NCBI GenBank assembly: GCA_030583725.1 | Contig: CP129472.1 | Coordinates: forward strand, 401,701-465,700 | DNA from: a bacterium | Lineage (GTDB): Bacteria; Patescibacteriota; Microgenomatia; UBA8517 | DNA: 64,000 bases | Reading direction: 5' to 3' | Part shown: positions 47,672 through 56,024 of the stretch, in pieces | How positions within the stretch are numbered: position 1 is the stretch's first letter | Layout of the letters: every line of letters begins with the position of its first letter | Notes under the pieces: generated by a model | Databases searched by the model: none | What the model was told of the DNA's origin: nothing | What the model saw: the letters and a program-made list of their open reading frames with translations, nothing else | Translations under genes and position numbers: made by a program

Positions 47672-48421
47672 TTAGTTCTTTGCCTCTTCTAAAACTGTTG
47701 CCGCTTCTGGGGCAGTTTCTGTCTTAGATTCTTCACCAGCAGGGCTTTCACCCTCAACAACTGTGGCTACTGCGTGATGTTCAAAATCTAAAGATCCAGA
47801 TTTTATCTTATTAACTGTCAAGAAAATTCCAACTCTTCCAGGAATTGGGCTTGAAAGTAATAGTTGATTGTTTTCTGCATCTATATCAACAACACGAGCA
47901 TTTTTAAATGTAACCTGAACTCCACCCATTCTACCCGCCATTCTCTTGCCTTTATAGACTCTACCTGGAGTTGTGGTCTGTCCTATTGATCCAGGAGCTC
48001 TGTGGCGATCACTTTGTCCGTGAGTCTTTGGCCCACCTCTAAAGTTATATCTTCTAACTCCACCAGCAAAACCTTTTCCTTTATTAACAGCAGTTACTGA
48101 AACAGTATCACCCTTTTTAAAGATATCAGAAACATTAATGATATCACCAACTTTGTAATTTGGTTCTGATGTCATTCTTACTTCTCTTACATATCTTGGA
48201 AAGTTTTTTTCTTTTGATTTGAGGTGGCCTTGAAGTGGTTTAGAAGTGTTTTTTGCTTTTCTGTTTCCGAATCCGAGTTGAATTGCCCAATAGCCATCAT
48301 TCTTTTCATTTTTAATTTGGGTAACTACACATGGGCCAAGTGTTACTTTTGTCACGGGAACTCTAGACCCGTCTATAAAAGTCTGTGTCATCTGTCCTTT
48401 TGTACCAAATAATGTTTTCAT
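47672..48421 (-). CDS. rplC: 50S ribosomal protein L3
   Basis: L3 family. It is not preceded by rpsJ here. Confidence 0.85.
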   Translation of the reverse strand: MKTLFGTKGQMTQTFIDGSRVPVTKVTLGPCVVTQIKNEKNDGYWAIQLGFGNRKAKNTSKPLQGHLKSKEKNFPRYVREVRMTSEPNYKVGDIINVSDIFKKGDTVSVTAVNKGKGFAGGVRRYNFRGGPKTHGQSDRHRAPGSIGQTTTPGRVYKGKRMAGRMGGVQVTFKNARVVDIDAENNQLLLSSPIPGRVGIFLTVNKIKSGSLDFEHHAVATVVEGESPAGEESKTETAPEAATVLEEAKN

Positions 48422-48437
48422 TTGCCGCGTGTCGTGT

Positions 48438-48472
48438 TTTAGAAAAAAATAAAAGCGCCGTAAAAGCGCTTA
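48438..48472 (-). terminator. terminator-like hairpin plus U-run in the rplC leader (candidate attenuator)
   Basis: The minus-strand RNA folds as AAGCGC-uuuuacg-GCGCUU followed by UUAUUUUUUUC. It lies between the promoter at 48539-48567 and the rplC ATG at 48421. Confidence 0.4.
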
Positions 48473-48524
48473 TCCTGCTTTTAGCATTCTTTCTTGAGGC
48501 TATCTTGTTAAATACACCTCCATA

Positions 48525-48569
48525 ATTTCTATTGGTGAATTATATCAAACTATATGACTTGTATCAAGC
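48525..48569 (-). promoter_or_regulatory. 45-bp repeated element copy 1, a near-consensus sigma70 promoter (TTGATA-N17-TATAAT) pointing at rplC
   Basis: Minus-strand reading gives -35 TTGATA (48567-48562), an exact 17-nt spacer and -10 TATAAT (48544-48539). About 110 nt upstream of rplC. Confidence 0.5.
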
Positions 48570-48835
48570 CACGCTTTCATGCTACACTTAGGCTCAAGAC
48601 GGGTATGGAAATTGTAACAAGCGTATTTAATGACGAAATTGTTATTGTCACAGGAAAGCCTGGAGATAAAACTATTCTTAGAACTCCACAACTTGGAGTA
48701 GCCCAAGCATTGGCCACTGCAAGGAACAATTTAGCAAGAACCAATCCTCTTGTTTGTTCAGATAACAATGAGAAAACTAAACCAGTTATGCCAAAAGTAT
48801 CTTTGGTAAGGTCAAATAATTAAATGAAGAGAAAA

Positions 48836-49057
48836 TTAACCTCTTCTCTCAGCACTACTATTTTGACCTTTTTCTTTCCTTTTTTCTAAAACTTCTTCGA
48901 CAGTTTCCTCTAATTGAGATCTTAATAATTCCTCTTTGGCTTCAGCACTTTCTAAAGCCAACCTAACAGTATCTTTTGAATAACCTGTTAAACCAGCCAA
49001 GAGAGAAATCTTAATTTCGTTAGGGATTTTTCTCAATTTATTAAAAACTACCTGCAT
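48836..49057 (-). CDS. small helix-turn-helix-like protein (hypothetical regulator)
   Basis: 73 aa. ISLLAGLTGYSKDTVRLAL resembles an HTH. It has its own TTGAAT-N18-TACTAT promoter. Its C-tail KGQNSSAERRG is paralogous to that of ORF 50477-50743. Confidence 0.35.
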   Translation of the reverse strand: MQVVFNKLRKIPNEIKISLLAGLTGYSKDTVRLALESAEAKEELLRSQLEETVEEVLEKRKEKGQNSSAERRG

Positions 49058-49138
49058 TTTATTATCAACAGATAGTACTCTCTTTTTTTTTTGAAATTCA
49101 AGAATTGTGATTTTTAATATTCCTGAGATAATATAAAT

Positions 49139-49723
49139 ATGTCCAACAAGAAAAATAAGGAAATCGAGATCCAGGTACAGGTTGAGAATATTAAAGGACT
49201 AAATAAGTTTCTTAGAGAAAAAGCAAAATTTATAAACAAAGAACATCAAGTAGATAAATACTTTTCCCCAAAAGATCGTAAGTTTTTAAAAGTCAGACCA
49301 GTAGTTGAGTGGCTTAGGCTACGAGATTCGTCGGATAAACAATCAATTAATTACAAAAATTGGCATCATGATAAAAATGGTAGAAGCCATTATTGTGACG
49401 AATATGAAACTCCTGTTGGAAATATGGAGCAAGTAGAGAAAATATTCAAATCGCTTGAGATAAAACCAATTGTTACTGTAGATAAAACAAGAAAAATATA
49501 TAAATACAAAGATTACGAAATTTCTATTGATTCCATTAAAGATTTAGGTAACTTTGTAGAAATTGAATATAAAGGTAAAAATACAACCAAAAGTCCAGCA
49601 AAAATCACAGAAGAAATGATTAAATTTTTAAAGGACCTAAATTGTGGAAAGATATCAAGAAATTATGTTGGCTACCCTTTTCAAATGTTATTTCCAAAAG
49701 AAGTAAAATACGAAATATTTTAA
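49139..49723 (+). CDS. CYTH-domain protein (triphosphate tunnel metalloenzyme / CyaB-like)
   Basis: N-terminal EIEIQVQV (E-x-E-x-K-like strand with Q at the Lys position), LRLR, DEYETPV and C-terminal FVEIEYKG acidic strands in CYTH order. 194 aa. Confidence 0.5.
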   Translation: MSNKKNKEIEIQVQVENIKGLNKFLREKAKFINKEHQVDKYFSPKDRKFLKVRPVVEWLRLRDSSDKQSINYKNWHHDKNGRSHYCDEYETPVGNMEQVEKIFKSLEIKPIVTVDKTRKIYKYKDYEISIDSIKDLGNFVEIEYKGKNTTKSPAKITEEMIKFLKDLNCGKISRNYVGYPFQMLFPKEVKYEIF

Positions 49724-49730
49724 TCAAAAA

Positions 49731-50372
49731 ATGCCAGATAATAATAACGAGAGGTTAAAATTATTAGAGAGGCAACCCGACTATGGAAAAGTAACAGTTT
49801 TAATTGGTCCAGATGGTGGAGGCAAAACTTACCTTTCAAATAAACTTCATGAAGATAATCCAGAAGCTATTTTAATTGATGGTACTCATCCACAAAACTG
49901 GCCTGTTTCAGATGAAAAGAAAAAGAGTCTTGCAAGATTAAAGGAAATTGGAGGTAATGATCCTAATTTTGATTATTATGGAATTTTAGGTTTAGAACTT
50001 CACAAAGTTATATATAGATTAGCAAAAGAAGGTAAAGATGTAATTGTAGACTCAGAACAAACTTTTAAATGGTTAATGTGGGAAGATATGAAAGGTAACT
50101 TAGACAAATCAATTCAAATACTAACAAGCAAAGAATTCAATGCAATTTTGCCAGATACAGTTAAGTACGTTGTTCCAGAAGCAGAAAGTTTTGATAAACA
50201 AGCAGAATTAATATGGGAACAGCAAAGCAGAAAATTACAATCAGAAGTAAGCCCTATTGACCCTAAAAATTTAGAGGAAGTTAAAACTAGACTTAAAGCT
50301 TCAGAAAATGTAATACTCGCACTTGAAAAGGTTGGAGTAATTGTTGAAGGAAAACCAAATTGGGTAAAATAA
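49731..50372 (+). CDS. P-loop NTPase, nucleoside/nucleotide-kinase-like
   Basis: Walker A VLIGPDGGGKTYL and a DVIVDSEQ Walker-B-like segment. 213 aa. The start lies 8 nt after the CYTH stop, indicating an operon pair. Confidence 0.45.
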   Translation: MPDNNNERLKLLERQPDYGKVTVLIGPDGGGKTYLSNKLHEDNPEAILIDGTHPQNWPVSDEKKKSLARLKEIGGNDPNFDYYGILGLELHKVIYRLAKEGKDVIVDSEQTFKWLMWEDMKGNLDKSIQILTSKEFNAILPDTVKYVVPEAESFDKQAELIWEQQSRKLQSEVSPIDPKNLEEVKTRLKASENVILALEKVGVIVEGKPNWVK

Positions 50373-50414
50373 ATTAATAACTAATTGGAATTTTAATAAT
50401 TACTCAATATAATC

Positions 50415-50459
50415 ATTTCTGATGGTGAATCAGATCAAACTATATGACTTGTATCAAGC
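50415..50459 (-). repeat. 45-bp repeated element copy 2 (degenerate promoter copy)
   Basis: 41 of 45 positions match copy 1. The -35 TTGATA and the 17-nt spacer are conserved, while the -10 is degraded to TCTGAT. Confidence 0.5.
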
Positions 50460-50476
50460 AATGGTTTTATAAAGTT

Positions 50477-50743
50477 TTAACTTCTTGCTTCAGTCCTACC
50501 ACCTTTTTGTTCAGCCTCAAGTTCTGCTTTGTATTTATTCATTTTGTCAATTAATGTTGGAGGTGGTTGTTCTCCACGACTTAACATACCTTCTACTAGT
50601 AATATAAAGGGTTTTCTAGAACGATCTTGTCTTTCTTTATATGTAGATAGACTGTCCCGTACACCTTTTGCAACATGTGCTATTATTCCAGAGCTCATTC
50701 CACCACCGCCTTGCCAAAAATAACGTTTACCCGACATTGCCAA
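50477..50743 (-). CDS. small hypothetical protein, paralogous to the HTH-like ORF
   Basis: 88 aa, possibly starting at the internal Met at 50698. TTGAAT-N17-TAATAT promoter upstream. C-tail QKGGRTEARS and the 3' nucleotides are homologous to ORF 48836-49057. Confidence 0.3.
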   Translation of the reverse strand: MAMSGKRYFWQGGGGMSSGIIAHVAKGVRDSLSTYKERQDRSRKPFILLVEGMLSRGEQPPPTLIDKMNKYKAELEAEQKGGRTEARS

Positions 50744-50815
50744 ATATTACTCTCTCTTTTTTTGAAATTCAACACACATATTAAAATCTTTGATTAAAGA
50801 TATTGTATAATCCAA

Positions 50816-51210
50816 ATGTATGAATCCGTAGGTATATTTAGCAGGACCAGGAAATCAATATGATCCAAGGAGGTCGATAGTTAAAAAAATAAAAGGTTTT
50901 AAATTTTATGATCCTGATACAGATTCTGATCAATCTTCATCAGAAACATTTTTCCCTCAAGATTTAACTGCAATCAAAAACTCAGAAATTTTAATTGCAA
51001 ACCCAGGCACTGCACCTGCAGAAGGAACATGGATTGAAATTGGATATTTTTACGCACTAAACACTAAAAAAGCTGGGGACTTTTGTAACAACTTGATAAT
51101 TATTTGGAACAAAGACAGAGTATCTTGGTCTATAGAATTTGTTAAAAAAACTGGCCATGTAGTTGGAACAGTTAAAGAAGCAATATCCAAACTCAGAGCG
51201 CTACACAATT
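50816..51210 (+). pseudogene. nucleoside 2-deoxyribosyltransferase-like gene with N-terminal +1 frameshift
   Basis: The frame from 50832 encodes VYLAGPGNQYD...PAEGTWIEIGYFYALNTKKAG (NDT-family YLAGP and E.G.A.A motifs) but has no start codon. An ATG at 50816 in the adjacent frame gives MYESV then stops. Deleting one nt near 50831 restores MYESVVYLAGPG. Confidence 0.5.
50984..51066. repeat. 83-bp perfect direct repeat, copy A (inside the NDT-like gene)
   Basis: Identical to 52258-52340 by eye over all 83 nt. Confidence 0.7.
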
Positions 51211-51285
51211 AGTCGTTAATCTAAATAGATCCAGTAAAGATATATCTATTGTGAATCGGTACAAGGATGTTGTGTTTAGTGACTT

Positions 51286-51942
51286 TTGATCCTGTGTTAT
51301 AATTCTTTTGTGCTTAAAAACAAAATTCTTGGCATATTAAATATACTTCTGAGTTTATGTTTTGCTTATTTTATATTCTCTGGAATTAAAAATGATGGTT
51401 TCCCGGAAATTTTTTCTTCTGAGATTTTTATATTTATTCTTTTTGTATTTTCACTGAGTATAAATATATTTGTAGTTTATAAAATGTTATTCAAAAATAA
51501 CGACAAGTTATCTTTTCCTTTGTATCTAGTATTAACCCTCTCAACTATATTTTGGTTTATATTATTGTTTGTTACTTATTTTTTTGCATCTAATTTCTTA
51601 TTTCATTTAATTATCTTGACTGCAATTTCTATTTTTTCTTACTTCCTTTATAAATTGTCAAAAAAGATAGCTTTAATGTTTTTAACTACGACTGTCTTTA
51701 TTTTGTTTATCTCAACTATAATTGGATTTAATAACGACTACTGTTGGAGAAAAGGAAGACAAGCTGATAAGACTGGAGATAAAATGATGGTTGCTACAAA
51801 AGAAGATGCTGAGTTACTTAAAAACTTTGGTGTTGTGAAAGAGGGAAATAAAATTGGAGTTAGTTTTAGAACTGAGATGTTATGCTATCAAACTTTCAAT
51901 TTCAAGGATGCTATTAGTGATCTTTTTCCAATCTTAAAGTAA
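51286..51942 (+). CDS. membrane protein with C-terminal soluble domain (hypothetical)
   Basis: About 5 TM helices followed by a 70-aa polar domain. Confidence 0.35.
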   Translation: MILCYNSFVLKNKILGILNILLSLCFAYFIFSGIKNDGFPEIFSSEIFIFILFVFSLSINIFVVYKMLFKNNDKLSFPLYLVLTLSTIFWFILLFVTYFFASNFLFHLIILTAISIFSYFLYKLSKKIALMFLTTTVFILFISTIIGFNNDYCWRKGRQADKTGDKMMVATKEDAELLKNFGVVKEGNKIGVSFRTEMLCYQTFNFKDAISDLFPILK

Positions 51943-52038
51943 CTTTTTACTTTATTACCTATTAACCCTTCGACTACTGCCAAAGTATAACTACAGGCGA
52001 TAACATTACAGAAAAAATTGTAATTAAATTTCTTATAT

Positions 52039-52257
52039 TTAAATAAGACTAAAGTGTTTAAATACATCAATTATTCCATTTTCATCCACACTTGGAGCTA
52101 TATATGAATTATTACTTCCTTTAGACAAGACAAGTTTTTTTAACTCTTCTTGTGAATTTCCCATAGCTGAAACAAACTTACAAAGCTCAATAAATTTCCA
52201 ATCTCTTGTACTATCACCGACCCCAAGCATGTTTTCAAAAGATATATTTGTTTCTTT
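52039..52257 (-). pseudogene. C-terminal fragment of a Cof-type HAD phosphatase
   Basis: VGDSTRDWKFIE...AMGNSQEELKKLVLSKGSNNSY...ENGIIDVFKHFSLI aligns to the last 70 aa of Cof-like hydrolases (GDxxND motif III, AMGNA). The first 200 aa are missing. The 5' end abuts copy B of the 83-bp repeat. Confidence 0.55.
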
Positions 52258-52340
52258 AGAAATTTTAATTGCAAACCCAGGCACTGCACCTGCAGAAGGA
52301 ACATGGATTGAAATTGGATATTTTTACGCACTAAACACTA
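52258..52340. repeat. 83-bp perfect direct repeat, copy B (rearrangement junction)
   Basis: Identical to 50984-51066. It supplies the spurious first 9 codons of ORF 52039-52284. Confidence 0.7.
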
Positions 52341-53102
52341 GATCAGTCGTTGCAATTGCATTTCTCCCTTTTGTCTTCCAAAGTGATTACCACCATATAA
52401 TATAACCCCATATTTTTCAAAAAGTTTGTATGGTGGGTCGCTTGTACGTTTCTTTGATTCAATAATTTTTCTAAGTTCATCAGAGGGCGACTTTAATGCT
52501 TCGATTGTCGTTCTTGATGCAACCATTAAACCTAATTGTGACTGAGTAATAAGACCCGATGTTGTAAGTCCTTGATGGCCTAAAGCTGCGCTAATTAAAA
52601 GACTTTGGAAATCTCCTAAAGTCCAAGTAACAGGAACGCCGTTAACTTTTGGAATCGTTTTCGAAAAATAACTTAGAAGATGATTTACTACATCATCTAA
52701 CGGATGTGAATGTATATGTGCAAATGTCCTCCAACCCGCTGGAAAAGGAATTGACTTCAATGTATTAACATGTTGATGCATCTCCTTCTGAGTTTTATCA
52801 GTCAAGCTTTCGTATTCACTACCTTCAAAAACCTTATTACTAATCATTAACTCTCCTGCGTCGTTTGTACCAATAACAGCATCGCGTTCAATCAAAATAC
52901 CAGAATCTGCTGATGTTGTATTTTTGCCACAATAAACACGGTGATAGATAGATTGAAAAAAGTTTCCATCAAGTGGAACTACAACTTTGTATGGAAACAC
53001 TTCTGGCTCTAAATCTGCCGAAACTTTAATAACTTGGCCAAAGTTTTCAAATGAATATGTTATAAAATCAGGTCTACTTGGAAACCCTACTGTTTTTTCC
53101 AT
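52338..53102 (-). CDS. hypothetical protein (H-x-H-S-H-P metal-site-like motif)
   Basis: 254 aa. The FAHIHSHP segment is loosely reminiscent of a JAMM/MPN H-S-H-P site, but the downstream S-x2-D is not evident. Confidence 0.3.
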   Translation of the reverse strand: MEKTVGFPSRPDFITYSFENFGQVIKVSADLEPEVFPYKVVVPLDGNFFQSIYHRVYCGKNTTSADSGILIERDAVIGTNDAGELMISNKVFEGSEYESLTDKTQKEMHQHVNTLKSIPFPAGWRTFAHIHSHPLDDVVNHLLSYFSKTIPKVNGVPVTWTLGDFQSLLISAALGHQGLTTSGLITQSQLGLMVASRTTIEALKSPSDELRKIIESKKRTSDPPYKLFEKYGVILYGGNHFGRQKGEMQLQRLI

Positions 53103-53133
53103 AAATTGTATTATATCAAAGATAAGAAGTTAA

Positions 53134-53784
53134 CTAATTCTGTTTTCTACTTTCAACAAACTTTTTTCCATGACCAATTTGTAAATTAATTGGTATATTT
53201 TGTTCACATAAAGGGCAATCTTTTTCATGATATGACTCGGCTTTTAAATTGGAAAGCGAAGAAAATGGAACACCCAACGTCTCAGAGTTAACTCCGTCAG
53301 GATTTCTATTAACCATAGTGCTAACCGCTGTAATCCTTCCACCAGCTTTAACAACACTTTCAACAACTTTCAATACAGAACCACCCGTTGTTGTTATGTC
53401 TTCAACTATTAAAACATCTTTGCCTTTTACCATTTCACCATATCCTCGTCTAAAAACTTGATCATTAAGTTCATCCTTTTCCGTATAAACCCCACTTATC
53501 TCTTTGCTTTTAAGCTGAGTTAAATGATATGCAGTCCATTGAGATAAAATTATTCCACCAACTGCTGGACCAACTACAACATCTATATCCAGATACTGAT
53601 GTCTTTCGGCAAACATTCTACAAACCATAGTTGTTTCCATGGGGTGCAAGTACATTGCATCTTTATTTACATATACTGATCCATGAAGTCCTGAAGTGTA
53701 GACAAAATGACCATTGGTATAGACTGCTCCGACTCTTTTAAAAAGATCAAGAAGTGGATCAACCCCTTCAAATTCTATAGTCAT
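53134..53784 (-). CDS. type I phosphoribosyltransferase, PyrE-like, with C-terminal Cys pair
   Basis: GHFVYTSGLHGSVYVN (compare PyrE GEFTLKSG..SPYFFN), PRPP-binding VLIVEDITTTGGS, and a C-terminal CPLCEQ. Confidence 0.6.
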   Translation of the reverse strand: MTIEFEGVDPLLDLFKRVGAVYTNGHFVYTSGLHGSVYVNKDAMYLHPMETTMVCRMFAERHQYLDIDVVVGPAVGGIILSQWTAYHLTQLKSKEISGVYTEKDELNDQVFRRGYGEMVKGKDVLIVEDITTTGGSVLKVVESVVKAGGRITAVSTMVNRNPDGVNSETLGVPFSSLSNLKAESYHEKDCPLCEQNIPINLQIGHGKKFVESRKQN

Positions 53785-53842
53785 TTTGAAATGATAACAT
53801 AGAATTAATATAAAGTTGTTTTTTTGGTTATTGTTGTAAAGA

Positions 53843-54106
53843 TTGTTGAGTGGTATTTTATTACTAATGGCACCTGAAGCTTTAGTTATAGTGAATAGTG
53901 GGCAATCTAGTGATGAAATGACTGAAAGATTACGGCTAGCTGGGATTAAATTTCGAGAAATGAAAGTGGAAGGTGAAACAGTCCAAGACGAGACAGGGGT
54001 TCGCCAAGTTCCAGTTATAATTACAAGAGAAGGCGACTTTACTTCAGATGGGTTAGAGAATTATTTAGAAATAAAGGCAGAACAGACAAGATTAAAAATA
54101 CGATAA
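53843..54106 (+). CDS. Cys-less NrdH/glutaredoxin-like small protein
   Basis: Fold-level resemblance to NrdH (beta-alpha-beta with VPVIIT..GDF), but SGQS replaces the CxxC. Noticeably GC-richer than its surroundings. The true start may be an internal Met. Confidence 0.3.
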   Translation: MLSGILLLMAPEALVIVNSGQSSDEMTERLRLAGIKFREMKVEGETVQDETGVRQVPVIITREGDFTSDGLENYLEIKAEQTRLKIR

Positions 54107-54116
54107 TATTTTAAAA

Positions 54117-54446
54117 ATGCCAGCAGAACGAATACACGTAACTAAAGAGAATGCTGGGATAGCAGTGGCCTCAGGAATACTACTTGGAGCTGGAGTTATC
54201 TTTCCACCGGCGGTAGGATTAGGAATTGCTGTTGGCGCCGTGGGGGTTGTAAGAGAAGAGCGACATCAACGAGATGTTCAAATGGAAAATCTTAAAAACT
54301 ATATCGAATCTAGTCTCAGGGGTAAAGCTCCGGATGAAATTAGACCAACTATTGAGGAGTTAACAAAACGAATCACAGAAGGTCGTGATCTTCAAGATAG
54401 ATTTGACGCTGTCGAAGAACTTGCTCGTAGAATTGAAGATTCATAA
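54117..54446 (+). CDS. membrane-anchored hypothetical protein
   Basis: 109 aa with a Gly/Ala-rich TM hairpin and a charged C-terminal helix. GC-richer. Confidence 0.3.
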   Translation: MPAERIHVTKENAGIAVASGILLGAGVIFPPAVGLGIAVGAVGVVREERHQRDVQMENLKNYIESSLRGKAPDEIRPTIEELTKRITEGRDLQDRFDAVEELARRIEDS

Positions 54447-54472
54447 AATTATACCTAGTTTCCACACCACTC

Positions 54473-54775
54473 TTACATCTTAATTTCTATGGAGACACCT
54501 GCTGGAAGATCCATATTGCCTAATGAATCTACTGTTCTTGGGGTTGGGTCAATTATATCAATTAGTCTTTTATGAATTAAAACTTCATAATGTTCTTGAG
54601 CATCTTTATCTGTAAATGGAGATTCTTTAACGGACATCAAGGTCCTATCAGTTGGGAGTGGGGTTGGTCCAGAAATTTTAGCACCTGAAGCTAGGGCGAC
54701 ATCTATAATCTTTGATGCTGCCTCATCTATTACTCTATGATCGTAAGCTTTTAGCTTAACTCTAAGTCTTTGCAT
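54473..54775 (-). CDS. rpsJ: 30S ribosomal protein S10
   Basis: RLRVKLKAYDHRVID...HKRLIDIIDPTP is the canonical S10 sequence. It directly follows tuf, but about 6 kb separate it from rplC. Confidence 0.9.
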   Translation of the reverse strand: MQRLRVKLKAYDHRVIDEAASKIIDVALASGAKISGPTPLPTDRTLMSVKESPFTDKDAQEHYEVLIHKRLIDIIDPTPRTVDSLGNMDLPAGVSIEIKM

Positions 54776-54821: not shown

Positions 54822-56024
54822 TTAGGCTATAATTTTTGTGATAACACCTGCGCCTACTGTGTGTCCACCTTCACGAATTGCAAATCTCAAACCATCTTCC
54901 ATAGCTACAGGTACAATTAGTTTAACTGTCATTTTTGCACTATCTCCAGGCATAACCATTTCTACACCTTCAGCTAGTTTAACTTCACCTGTAATATCTG
55001 AAGTTCTAATAAAGAATTGTGGTTTGTATCCTGTAAAGAATGGTGTATGTCTTCCACCTTCGTCCTTAGATAGGATGTAAACTTCTGCTTCAAATTCTGT
55101 ATGAGGTGTAACTGAACCAGATTTTGCTAAAACTTGACCTCTTTCAACTGCTTCCTTGTCAATACCTCTTAAAAGTACACCAACATTGTCACCAGCCATT
55201 GCAGAATCAAGAAGTTTTCTAAACATTTCAAGACCTGTGACAACTGTTTTTTGTGTATCCTTGATACCTACAATTTCAATTTCTTCGTTGACTTTAATTT
55301 CTCCTCTTTCAACCCTACCTGTGACAACTGTTCCACGACCTGAAATTGAGAAAACATCTTCAACAGGCATAAGAAATGGTTTTTCTGTATCTCTTACTGG
55401 ATCTGGAATATATGAGTCTGCTGTTTTCATTAATTCTAAAATACCCTTTTCTGCTTCAGCATCACCTTCAAGAGCCTTAAGTGCTGAAACTCTAACAATT
55501 GGGGTTTCTGCTCCTGGGAATTGATACTTTGTTAACAATTCTCTAATATCTGCTTCAACCAACTCAAGAAGTTCTGGATCATCCATTGCATCACATTTGT
55601 TTAATGCAACTATCAAAGACGGAACATTGACTTGTCTTGCTAAAATTACGTGTTCTCTTGTTTGAGGCATAGGTCCATCTGGAGCTGAAACAACTAAGAT
55701 TGCTCCATCCATTTGGGCTGCACCTGTAATCATGTTCTTAATGTAATCTGCGTGACCTGGAGCATCAATATGAGCATAATGCCTTTTGTCTGTTTCATAT
55801 TCAACGTGGGAAATATTGATTGTAACTCCTCTTTGTTTTTCTTCTGGAGCTGAATCAATTTGATCAAAAGCGTAAGCTTTATTTACTCCACCTGGGAAAT
55901 TCTTTGCAAGTACTGTAGTAATAGCTGCAGTTAATGTGGTCTTGCCGTGATCAACGTGACCAATTGTCCCAATGTTTAAGTGGGTTTTTGTTCTATCAAA
56001 TTTTTGTTTTGCGTCTGCTGCCAT
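54822..56024 (-). CDS. tuf: elongation factor Tu
   Basis: [27 protein letters not shown] and the full 400-aa EF-Tu. Confidence 0.95.

What the first reader, a model, noticed from the sequence alone, without database searches (positions are those of the whole stretch)
49139..50372. CYTH-domain protein and P-loop kinase-like protein form a tight two-gene operon
The 194-aa ORF has the ordered acidic strands of a CYTH/triphosphate-tunnel enzyme (EIEIQV, LRLR, DEYETPV, FVEIEYKG). The Lys of the canonical N-terminal E-x-E-x-K strand appears to be Gln, which could alter or abolish triphosphate binding. Eight nt downstream starts a 213-aa P-loop protein (GPDGGGKT) resembling small nucleoside/nucleotide kinases. 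A triphosphate-cleaving or cyclizing enzyme coupled to a kinase suggests a dedicated nucleotide or polyphosphate conversion step. It could also be a nucleotide second-messenger maker with a partner. I cannot name a described system with this exact pair.
Basis: partly seen in the sequence, partly recalled or inferred. Interest (0 to 1): 0.6.

Follow-up and report, generated by a model that had tools for sequence, protein, structure and literature searches.

The report
CYTH triphosphatase with dedicated kinase-like partner
A tunnel-shaped triphosphate-cleaving enzyme, mislabelled in databases as an adenylate cyclase, is co-transcribed with a very rare, undescribed thymidylate-kinase-shaped protein that is almost always encoded next to such an enzyme, so the two probably work together on one phosphorylated small molecule whose identity is still unknown.

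Summary
ORF1 (49139-49723, 194 aa) is a bona fide CYTH/triphosphate-tunnel protein. ORF2 (49731-50372, 213 aa) starts 7 nt later and has a thymidylate-kinase/deoxynucleoside-kinase fold with an intact P-loop.

ORF1 fails the published signature of class IV adenylate cyclases. It has no HF motif, ExE instead of ExA, and the central Arg is present. It carries the W-x-R-x-R motif otherwise reported only for thiamine triphosphatases and plant TTM1/2. The Lys-to-Gln change in ExExK is real and is a conserved clade trait (107 of 117 homologues), not decay.

ORF2 belongs to an undescribed and very rare family:
- 15 close proteins among 5.8 billion clusters;
- 1 of 185,579 species genomes;
- about 55 proteins including a distant subfamily.

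ORF2 lacks the catalytic Arg of the kinase DRX motif and has an invariant D-S-[D/E] there.

Every close member examined sits immediately after a CYTH gene. The linkage persists at about 20% identity, in both gene orders and in divergent orientation. The CYTH orthologue itself is common and usually stands alone.

Best reading: a two-protein module acting on one organic polyphosphate, in parallel to the plant TTM-kinase fusion. The substrate is unknown. Novelty is moderate.

The parts
49139..49723 (+). ORF1, 194-aa CYTH / triphosphate tunnel metalloenzyme-like protein
49160..49174 (+). N-terminal strand E8-I-E10-I-Q12: the ExExK motif with Gln in place of Lys
   Evidence: Translation. Q in 107, K in 5, R in 2, H in 2 and E in 1 of 117 homologues with the motif. 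E8 and E10 are invariant.
49310..49324 (+). W58-L-R60-L-R62: the W/YxRxR motif (aromatic stacking residue plus two phosphate-binding Arg)
   Evidence: Translation. Present in 119 of 120 homologues. Motif definition from PMC8233210. hhalign places it on W53-L-R55-Q-R57 of mouse ThTPase.
49559..49567 (+). E141-I-E143: the ExE metal-binding motif on the last tunnel strand
   Evidence: Translation. Present in 115 of 120 homologues. Class IV cyclases have ExA here (PMC8233210).
49724..49730 (+). 7-nt spacer between the stop of ORF1 and the start of ORF2
   Evidence: In related loci the spacer ranges from -11 to +19 nt.
49731..50372 (+). ORF2, 213-aa P-loop protein with thymidylate-kinase / deoxynucleoside-kinase fold; member of an undescribed family
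49806..49829 (+). Walker A / P-loop G26-P-D28-G-G-G-K32-T33, with the acidic third residue typical of dTMP kinases
   Evidence: G26, D28, G29, G31 and K32 are invariant in 26 sequences down to 17% identity. hhalign aligns it to IEGLEGAGKTT of E. coli Tmk.
49899..49901 (+). W57, invariant Trp after strand 2, in the region that forms the acceptor-binding loop of NMP kinases
   Evidence: Invariant in A3. Its position relative to the secondary structure comes from the model. A role in acceptor binding is inferred.
50049..50057 (+). D107-S108-E109 at the end of strand 3: Walker B Asp followed by Ser where dTMP kinases have the catalytic Arg (DRX)
   Evidence: D107 and S108 are invariant in A3. Strand 104-107 followed by helix 109-120 in the model. 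Role of the DRX Arg from PMC12995831. Equivalence is by topology, not by a printed structural alignment.
50211..50270 (+). Lid-like segment I161-N180 with R167/K168 and the invariant D177-P178
   Evidence: Distant relatives carry R-x(3-4)-R here.

Best explanation
ORF1 and ORF2 form a co-transcribed, probably translationally coupled, two-protein module that acts on one phosphorylated small molecule.

ORF1 is a two-metal CYTH triphosphohydrolase, not a cyclase. It removes the terminal phosphate of an organic triphosphate whose head group stacks on Trp58. Candidate substrates are a nucleotide or thiamine triphosphate, with inorganic tripolyphosphate as the fallback substrate.

ORF2 is an ATP-binding phosphotransferase of the thymidylate-kinase/deoxynucleoside-kinase fold. 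It belongs to an undescribed family defined by GxDGxGK[ST], an invariant Trp, D-S-[D/E] in place of DRX, and a D-P lid motif. This family exists essentially only beside CYTH genes.

The likeliest arrangement is a complex. The kinase-like protein phosphorylates, or binds, the less phosphorylated form of the same compound, so that both activities set its phosphorylation state. The plant TTM1/2 proteins are a parallel case: there a P-loop kinase and a tunnel domain are fused and regulate each other.

Shown: domain identities, motif states, rarity, and conserved linkage.
Inferred: hydrolase rather than cyclase chemistry, kinase activity of ORF2, complex formation, and the shared substrate.
For: ORF1 identity: CYTH by HMM, PDB sequence search and fold.

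ORF1 chemistry: all residues needed for two-metal hydrolysis are conserved, and all three cyclase determinants are absent.

ORF1 head-group binding: W/YxRxR occurs in 119 of 120 homologues. Y41 and K73 stand where ThTPase has the Tyr39/Lys65 dyad.

Linkage in the close family: window, L001/2, L003/4, L013/15/16, L014 and L021 all show CYTH followed by the P-loop gene, with spacers of -11 to +11 nt and different flanks. P0003, P0005 and P0011 share contig lengths with CYTH hits P0017, P0053 and P0025.

Linkage in distant relatives: L017 is divergently oriented, L022-25 has the order P-loop then CYTH, and L026/27 has CYTH then P-loop. The partner CYTH proteins belong to different subfamilies, so the link is to CYTH function and not to inherited synteny.

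Precedent for physical and functional coupling: the AtTTM1 crystal structure (PMC9582702).
Against: - No substrate is identified and no biochemical data exist for either family.
- ORF2 lacks the DRX arginine, which is essential in dTMP kinases and PPK2/3 and is replaced in the inactive rPPK3 subunit. ORF2 could therefore be a regulatory or nucleotide-binding subunit rather than a kinase.
- Most CYTH orthologues work without the partner (679 hits against 15).
- One distant relative (P0138, L018-20) has no CYTH neighbour.
- In one Woesebacteria lineage either gene can be disrupted, so the module is dispensable.
- Complex formation could not be modelled with these tools.
Confidence: 0.5

Rival explanations
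1. Polyphosphate or tripolyphosphate module. ORF1 is an inorganic tripolyphosphatase. ORF2 is a PPK3/PPK2-like enzyme of the thymidylate-kinase superfamily that moves phosphate between short polyphosphates and nucleotides.
For: - Tripolyphosphatase is the commonest and presumed ancestral CYTH activity, and SaTTM, the best PDB relative, is one.
- NUDIX genes, which are typical PPK neighbours, flank several CYTH loci.
Against: - The DRX arginine, essential in PPK2/PPK3, is Ser in every family member.
- ORF2 is not consistently basic. pI values are 5.3, and 4.7-5.1 in several relatives. Only K32 is an invariant basic residue across the wider family, so no polyP cleft is evident.
- Predicted PPK3 operons encode a catalytic plus a regulatory paralogue. 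Here there is a single P-loop gene.
- The conserved Trp58, Trp75 and His76 in ORF1 suggest an organic head group.
Confidence: 0.15
2. RNA-end processing module. ORF1 acts as an RNA 5'-triphosphatase and ORF2 as a polynucleotide 5'-kinase. In a distant branch they are joined by a methyltransferase, for RNA repair or end modification.
For: - The TTM superfamily includes RNA triphosphatases.
- The distant subfamily has a tightly linked 461-472 aa protein with a class I SAM methyltransferase domain.
- L001 carries a 2H/CPDase, a NUDIX, a GIY-YIG and a TGT gene nearby.
Against: - The methyltransferase is absent from the window and from all close-family loci.
- Flanking genes vary from locus to locus.
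Confidence: 0.1
3. Signalling pair. ORF1 is a class IV adenylate cyclase, as NCBI and JGI annotate its homologues. It makes a cyclic nucleotide, and ORF2 is an effector or a supplier of substrate.
For: - TIGR00318 (cyaB) scores 89 bits against a cutoff of 58.
- Sources name homologues 'class IV adenylate cyclase'.
Against: The published determinants of true AC-IV enzymes (PMC8233210) are all missing:
- no HF motif in 0 of 120 homologues;
- ExE instead of ExA in 115 of 120;
- the central Arg of the xRxR strand retained in 119 of 120.

SaTTM carried the same annotation and is a triphosphatase. No cyclic-nucleotide receptor domain lies nearby.
Confidence: 0.05
4. ORF2 is a catalytically dead, nucleotide-sensing regulatory subunit. 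It gates or activates the CYTH enzyme, in the way rPPK3 activates cPPK3, and has no second substrate of its own.
For: - Loss of the DRX arginine is exactly what distinguishes the inactive rPPK3 subunit.
- The dependence is one-sided: the P-loop gene needs CYTH, but CYTH does not need it.
- In AtTTM1 the two domains lock each other.
Against: - Walker A, Walker B Asp, lid basic residues, Trp57 and D177-P178 are conserved to 17% identity. That is more than nucleotide binding alone would need.
- Ser108 is itself invariant, which suggests a new catalytic arrangement rather than decay.
Confidence: 0.15

Closest known systems
Arabidopsis TTM1/TTM2 (P-loop uridine/cytidine-kinase domain fused to a CYTH tunnel domain; PDB 7z67)
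   Same: A P-loop nucleotide kinase-type module is obligately associated with a CYTH module. The CYTH part carries the W/YxRxR motif and a non-canonical ExExK.
   Different: - Here the two are separate genes, not a fusion, and there is no membrane anchor.
- The deviation in ExExK is Lys to Gln with both metal-binding Glu kept. In AtTTM1/2 the Glu residues are lost and the tunnel is inactive.
The association therefore looks like a parallel invention.
SaTTM (Saci_0718) and archaeal CYTH proteins PH1819 and PH1012
   Same: These are the best sequence and structural relatives of ORF1. They share stand-alone size, the ExE motif, the xRxR strand and the DxY motif. They also carry the same misleading 'adenylate cyclase' annotation.
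   Different: - SaTTM has Lys in ExExK and Ala where ORF1 has Trp58.
- Its operon partners are a SAM hydrolase and NMNAT, not a P-loop kinase.
- ORF1 has an extra conserved C-terminal NYVGYPFQLLFP segment.
Mammalian 25-kDa thiamine triphosphatase (THTPA)
   Same: The W-x-R-x-R motif, with the Trp that stacks the thiazolium ring. Tyr and Lys stand at the positions of the Tyr39/Lys65 dyad. The ExE motif is also shared.
   Different: - ThTPase activity has so far been assigned only to metazoan enzymes.
- THTPA has the canonical Lys11.
Thymidylate kinase superfamily, including PPK3 (cPPK3/rPPK3)
   Same: The fold, a P-loop with an acidic third residue, a Walker B Asp at the end of strand 3, and a lid with basic residues.
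   Different: - No Pfam Thymidylate_kin match even at E<=1.
- The DRX Arg is replaced by an invariant Ser.
- None of the dTMP-binding residues is recognisable by sequence; hhalign aligns only the P-loop.
- A single gene rather than a c/r pair.
Class IV adenylate cyclase CyaB (YpAC-IV, A. hydrophila CyaB)
   Different: ORF1 lacks HFxxxxExExK, lacks ExA, and keeps the gate-keeper Arg.

Membership tests
CYTH / triphosphate tunnel metalloenzyme superfamily | Significant match to the family profile (Pfam PF01928 above gathering score) | tested here: met
   83.8 bits against a cutoff of 23.2, E 1.7e-23, profile positions 1-170 of 179.
CYTH / triphosphate tunnel metalloenzyme superfamily | Beta-barrel tunnel fold | tested here: met
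   [not shown]
CYTH / triphosphate tunnel metalloenzyme superfamily | N-terminal ExExK: the two metal-binding glutamates | tested here: met
   E8 and E10 are invariant in 38 homologues.
CYTH / triphosphate tunnel metalloenzyme superfamily | N-terminal ExExK: the lysine | tested here: not met
   Gln12 in the window. Q in 107, K in 5, R in 2, H in 2 and E in 1 of 117 homologues. The register is supported by the minority with K at this position. HMMER's ungapped alignment to SaTTM is offset by two residues.
CYTH / triphosphate tunnel metalloenzyme superfamily | Basic tunnel residues and the C-terminal ExE motif for two-metal hydrolysis | tested here: met
   R60, R62, K73, K116, R118, E88, E141 and E143 are invariant, and E90 is nearly invariant (>=90%) in 38 homologues. 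ExE is present in 115 of 120.
Class IV adenylate cyclase (CyaB type) | HF motif four residues before ExExK (HFxxxxExExK) | tested here: not met
   The N-terminus is MSNKKNKEIEIQ. There is no HF within the first 15 residues in any of 120 homologues. Criterion from PMC8233210.
Class IV adenylate cyclase (CyaB type) | Second Glu of the C-terminal ExE replaced by Ala (ExA) | tested here: not met
   E141-I-E143. ExE in 115 of 120.
Class IV adenylate cyclase (CyaB type) | First Arg of the xRxR strand replaced by a small residue | tested here: not met
   R60 is invariant.
Class IV adenylate cyclase (CyaB type) | NCBIfam TIGR00318 (cyaB equivalog) above cutoff | tested here: met
   89.2 bits against 57.95. 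The model evidently also captures non-cyclase CYTH proteins such as SaTTM relatives.
Thiamine triphosphatase (THTPA type) | W/YxRxR motif with the aromatic stacking residue | tested here: met
   W58-L-R-L-R, present in 119 of 120 homologues. Aligned to W53-L-R55-Q-R57 of mouse THTPA (THTPA sequence verified against 5a64).
Thiamine triphosphatase (THTPA type) | Tyr39/Lys65 catalytic dyad | tested here: inconclusive
   D39-K-Y41 aligns with D37-T-Y39. K73 lies on the strand after the WxRxR hairpin, where K65 lies in THTPA, but hhalign mis-gaps that strand and the match is weak (E 0.026).
Thiamine triphosphatase (THTPA type) | Orthology with metazoan THTPA | tested here: not met
   [not shown]
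Thiamine triphosphatase (THTPA type) | Specific hydrolysis of ThTP | not testable with these tools
   Needs an enzyme assay.
Thymidylate kinase (dTMPK) family | dTMPK fold | tested here: met
   [not shown]
Thymidylate kinase (dTMPK) family | P-loop GxxxxGK[ST] with an acidic residue at position 3 | tested here: met
   G-P-D28-G-G-G-K-T. D28 is invariant and aligns with E12 of E. coli Tmk (Tmk sequence 212/213 identical to 4tmk).
Thymidylate kinase (dTMPK) family | DRX motif with the catalytic Arg after strand 3 | tested here: not met
   D107-S108-E109. D and S are invariant in 26 sequences. Equivalence is by position in the model, not by a printed structural alignment.
Thymidylate kinase (dTMPK) family | Match to Pfam PF02223 Thymidylate_kin | tested here: not met
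   No hit at E<=1. hhalign to E. coli Tmk aligns only 23 residues around the P-loop.
PPK3 polyphosphate kinase | Catalytic and regulatory dTMPK paralogues encoded together | tested here: not met
   There is one P-loop gene per locus in all loci examined. Criterion from PMC12995831.
PPK3 polyphosphate kinase | Conserved positively charged polyP cleft and DRX Arg in the catalytic subunit | tested here: not met
   Ser at the Arg position. K32 is the only invariant basic residue across the wider family. pI is 5.3 in the window and 4.7-5.1 in several relatives. The surface itself was not computed.
Plant TTM1/2-type TTM-kinase proteins | P-loop kinase of the uridine/cytidine-kinase family fused to a CYTH domain, with a C-terminal membrane anchor | tested here: not met
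   [not shown]

The most novel reading that the evidence does not exclude
The pair may be a bacterial thiamine-phosphate module. ORF1 would be the first non-metazoan enzyme built like a thiamine triphosphatase, with W-x-R-x-R, Tyr and Lys. ORF2 would be the long-postulated but never confirmed ATP-dependent kinase acting on thiamine phosphates, either ThDP:ATP phosphotransferase or a P-loop ThMP kinase. Together the two would set the ThMP/ThDP/ThTP balance in a cofactor-scavenging CPR bacterium.

More generally, ORF2 would found a new enzyme family of the dTMPK fold that uses Ser/Asp chemistry instead of the DRX arginine.
Probability: 0.08. Interest if true: 0.75.

Novelty: new variant of a known kind. 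Interest (0 to 1): 0.45.

Why it matters
Four consequences follow if this reading is right.

1. **Annotation.** Hundreds of Patescibacteria proteins named 'class IV adenylate cyclase' are probably triphosphohydrolases. Inferences of cAMP signalling in these reduced genomes from this gene are therefore unsafe.

2. **A new P-loop family.** The pair defines an undescribed family with the thymidylate-kinase fold that has replaced the catalytic arginine by an invariant Ser. It occurs almost only beside CYTH genes. This gives a clean, two-gene, easily expressed system for asking what CYTH enzymes do with a kinase partner. That question is still open for the plant TTM1/2 proteins, where the two domains are fused.

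3. **The ExExQ variant.** The conserved ExExQ plus WxRxR combination is a natural variant of the hallmark motif. It can be used to test what the motif lysine and the stacking tryptophan contribute to substrate choice.

4. **Thiamine metabolism.** If the substrate were a thiamine phosphate, the pair would bear on the unresolved enzymology of thiamine triphosphate synthesis.

Tried and rejected
- **Sequence searches of ORF2 against the PDB, alone and as a profile.** These gave only P-loop matches and spurious pentatricopeptide-repeat hits. Only the fold searches were informative.
- **hhalign of the ORF2 family against E. coli Tmk.** It aligned only the P-loop. The DRX/DSE equivalence therefore rests on the topology of the model.
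- **hhalign of the CYTH family against mouse ThTPase.** The match was weak (E 0.026). It was used only for motif correspondence.
- **PADLOC and PHROGs.** Neither gave a meaningful match for either protein. A defence-system or phage origin is not supported.
- **The search for related loci with the broad alignment A3.** It failed for lack of a conserved stretch. A full neighbourhood census was therefore not possible.
- **The afdb50 library.** It was not available.
- **The protein upstream of the P-loop gene in L005/L006.** It looks CYTH-like by eye but could not be confirmed. I do not count that locus as a confirmed pair.
- **Chance adjacency or inherited synteny.** I considered this for the pairing and rejected it. 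The flanks differ, the gene order and orientation vary, and the partner CYTH proteins belong to different subfamilies.
- **ORF2 as the genome's housekeeping thymidylate kinase.** I rejected this because the family is found in only 1 of 185,579 species genomes. A canonical adk is present in the window, but no tmk could be looked for beyond 64 kb.
- **The Iyer and Aravind 2002 CYTH paper.** It is not held in the library. My recollection that it noted CYTH-kinase fusions in plants is unverified here.
Full report
**What is in the window**

Two same-strand ORFs lie at 49139-49723 (194 aa) and 49731-50372 (213 aa). They are separated by 7 nt (TCAAAAA), not 8. No terminator-like site lies between or inside them, and promoter-like hexamers upstream are no more frequent than in shuffled sequence.

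The pair sits on the strand opposite to the surrounding ribosomal-protein genes. It lies in a roughly 6-kb stretch that separates rpsJ/tuf from rplC, and this stretch is lower in G+C than its surroundings. N-termini of homologues confirm both start codons.

The organism is a low-GC (34%) member of the Patescibacteria/CPR. All homologues come from such metagenomes. The only species-level genome with the second gene is a Candidatus Woesebacteria.

**ORF1 is a CYTH protein**

- Pfam PF01928 scores 83.8 bits against a cutoff of 23.2.
- The best solved relative is the Sulfolobus triphosphatase SaTTM (E 1.5e-17).

**ORF1 is probably a hydrolase, not a cyclase**

The family is large: 679 hits, mostly above 60% identity, many named 'class IV adenylate cyclase' by their sources. 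TIGR00318 also scores above its cutoff.

However, the structure-based signature of Vogt et al. (PMC8233210) says a true class IV cyclase needs three things. ORF1 and its homologues meet none of them.

| Cyclase requirement | State in ORF1 and homologues |
|---|---|
| HF motif four residues before ExExK | Absent in 0 of 120 |
| ExA instead of ExE on the last strand | ExE in 115 of 120 |
| Small residue instead of the first Arg of the xRxR strand | Arg kept; W[LI]R[LI]R in 119 of 120 |

So the annotation is probably wrong, as it was for SaTTM.

**The Lys-to-Gln change**

It is not a lesion, though. Among 117 homologues with the motif it is Q in 107, K in 5, R in 2, H in 2 and E in 1. Every other residue of the two-metal mechanism is invariant or nearly so: E8, E10, D39/Y41, R60, R62, K73, E88, E90, K116, R118, E141 and E143.

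HMMER and MAFFT align SaTTM two residues out of register here. The minority with Lys at position 12, and the invariant Glu at positions 8 and 10, fix the register as E-x-E-x-(Q/K).

**An aromatic stacking residue**

The clade has Trp58 in a W-x-R-x-R motif. Vogt et al. found the W/YxRxR motif only in thiamine triphosphatases and in the plant TTM1/2 cluster. In ThTPases the Trp stacks the thiazolium ring. Other clusters have a small residue at this position.

Mouse ThTPase (sequence verified against 5a64) aligns D37-x-Y39 and W53-L-R55-Q-R57 with D39-x-Y41 and W58-L-R60-L-R62 of ORF1. The alignment is weak.

ORF1 is not an orthologue of THTPA, so this resemblance is a lead about the type of substrate, namely an organic head group. 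It is not an assignment.

**ORF2 has the thymidylate-kinase fold but an altered active site**

By sequence only the P-loop is recognisable, and no Pfam or NCBIfam model reaches threshold.

The model (pLDDT 82) gives:
- Foldseek agrees, with E 2e-6 and TM up to 0.60.

The P-loop G-P-D-G-G-G-K-T has the acidic third residue typical of dTMP kinases and aligns with E. coli Tmk.

At the end of strand 3, dTMP kinases and PPK2/3 have D-R-X with an essential Arg clamp, which is replaced in the inactive rPPK3 subunit (PMC12995831). The family has an invariant D-S-[D/E] there.

Also invariant down to 17% identity are Trp57 after strand 2 and D177-P178 in a lid-like segment that carries basic residues. 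This pattern of conservation argues for a working nucleotide-dependent protein with a modified catalytic arrangement. Kinase activity remains an inference.

**Rarity of the ORF2 family**

- The close family has 15 proteins among 5.8 billion clusters.
- It forms a single 50%-identity cluster among 1.84 billion representatives.
- It occurs in 1 of 185,579 species genomes.
- A profile search adds a second subfamily of about 240-250 aa at 20-25% identity, for about 55 proteins in all.

**Linkage to CYTH**

Close-family loci:

| Locus | Arrangement and flanks |
|---|---|
| Window | CYTH then P-loop, 7-nt spacer |
| L001/L002 | Flanked by NUDIX, CPDase, TGT |
| L003/L004 | After rpsI and mevalonate-pathway genes, followed by NADAR |
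| L013/L015/L016 | Woesebacteria |
| L014 | — |
| L021 | — |

In all of these the P-loop gene immediately follows a CYTH gene, with spacers from -11 to +11 nt. Three more members share contig lengths with CYTH hits.

In L005/L006 the upstream gene looks CYTH-like but could not be confirmed.

Among distant relatives:
- P0136 lies next to a divergently transcribed CYTH gene.
- The P0161 group has the order P-loop then CYTH.
- P0148 has CYTH then P-loop.
- P0138 has no CYTH neighbour.

The partner CYTH proteins are of different subfamilies. They have canonical ExExK and Y, F or C at the Trp position. The link is therefore to CYTH function rather than to inherited synteny.

The converse does not hold. 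Three ORF1 orthologues sampled independently of the partner stand alone, next to NUDIX, HAD, nucleoside phosphorylase or secY/adk genes. Overall there are 679 CYTH hits against 15 partners. The P-loop protein is thus an optional accessory of a common enzyme.

**How it most likely works**

I commit, at about 0.5, to a two-protein module acting on one phosphorylated small molecule.
- ORF1 hydrolyses the terminal phosphate of an organic triphosphate stacked on Trp58.
- ORF2 binds ATP and phosphorylates, or at least binds, the less phosphorylated form of the same compound.
- The two are co-translated and probably associate.

**Rivals**

- *Polyphosphate/PPK3-like module (0.15).* Weakened by the missing Arg, by the lack of conserved basic residues and the often acidic pI, and by the absence of a catalytic/regulatory paralogue pair.
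- *Catalytically dead regulatory subunit (0.15).*
- *RNA-end processing (0.10).* Suggested by a linked methyltransferase in the distant branch. Weakened by the fold rankings and by the methyltransferase's absence from the window and close-family loci.
- *Cyclase signalling (0.05).*

Defence or phage origin finds no support.

**Comparison with the known, and novelty**

ORF1 is a new variant within the well-known CYTH superfamily: ExExQ plus WxRxR, in a CPR-wide clade. ORF2 founds an undescribed family of the dTMPK fold.

I found no description of this gene pair in five literature searches. The closest described system is the plant fusion. I rate it a new variant of a known kind, of moderate interest.

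The most novel reading not excluded is a bacterial thiamine-phosphate kinase/triphosphatase pair. A ThDP:ATP phosphotransferase has been postulated but never confirmed (PMC8615392). I put this at about 0.08.

**Limits**

- No substrate is identified.
- The DRX/DSE equivalence rests on model topology.
- Complex formation could not be modelled.

Noticed in passing
L003:4411-4995 (also L004): The CYTH gene upstream of an intact P-loop gene carries an in-frame TAG exactly at the codon that is Gln12 (CAG) in the window: MSKNKEIEI*VQIE. Gene callers therefore start downstream, giving 144 or 170 aa without the first tunnel strand. This is either a CAG-to-TAG nonsense mutation or a read-through site.
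   Followed up: partly
L013:6001-6638 (also L015:4795-5432, L016): In Candidatus Woesebacteria GW2011_GWB1_38_8b and matching JGI contigs, the P-loop gene is split into 69-aa and 143-aa ORFs. The cause is loss of one G in a G-run (CCTGAGGGGATAAAG). The adjacent CYTH gene is intact. Together with L003, which shares the synteny rpsI-MVD-IPK-CYTH-P-loop, this shows that either partner can be disrupted in this lineage.
   Followed up: partly
L013:6582-6761 (also L015:5376-5555, L016:2458-2637): A 60-aa stretch 43% identical to the C-terminal part of ORF1 (residues 140-193) lies at and just past the 3' end of the frameshifted P-loop gene. It may be a relic of a second CYTH copy or of a rearrangement.
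   Followed up: no
L023:3580-4998, L024:2758-4176, L026:3012-4397, L027:1001-2386: In the distant P-loop subfamily a third gene is packed against the pair, with spacers of 2-7 nt. It encodes a 461-472 aa protein with an N-terminal class I SAM methyltransferase domain (PF08242) and a conserved C-terminal region of about 270 aa with no Pfam or PDB relative. In L022/L025 a 99.7%-identical copy lacks the first 113 residues. It is absent from the window and from close-family loci.
   Followed up: partly
window 48422-54472: The usual rpsJ-rplC junction of the S10 operon is interrupted by about 6 kb: rpsJ is at 54473-54775, tuf at 54822-56024 and rplC at 47672-48421. The insert holds the CYTH/P-loop pair on the opposite strand, a phosphoribosyltransferase (53134-53784), a predicted membrane protein (51286-51942) and several unknown ORFs. 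G+C falls to 0.29-0.31 at 49-52 kb against 0.34-0.39 around, and GC skew changes sign.
   Followed up: partly
window 52039-52284 (- strand): An 81-aa ORF matches only the last 60 positions or so of the Cof-type HAD hydrolase profile (PF08282, E 9e-7). It is probably a truncated or frameshifted HAD gene. Intact HAD hydrolases flank the ORF1 orthologue in L007 and L009.
   Followed up: no
L005:3395-3976 (also L006:4420-5001): The 193-aa protein encoded immediately upstream of a close P-loop family member (1-nt overlap) shows a CYTH-like succession of strands: EIEIRG, IRLKK, EVEVK, FEIEG. It gives no significant Pfam or hhalign match, so it may be a very divergent CYTH.
   Followed up: partly
ORF1 homologues and L007, L009, L011: Hundreds of Patescibacteria proteins more than 60% identical to ORF1 are named 'class IV adenylate cyclase' or 'adenylate cyclase class 2' by NCBI and JGI. 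They lack all three published cyclase determinants. Their recurrent neighbours are NUDIX, HAD and nucleoside-phosphorylase genes.
   Followed up: partly
ORF1 residues 170-186 (window 49646-49696): The C-terminal segment G-K-I-S-R-N-Y-V-G-Y-P-F-Q-x-L-F-P is conserved across the clade, whether or not the partner gene is present. It is absent from SaTTM. Its role is unknown; tunnel closure or an interaction surface are possibilities.
   Followed up: no
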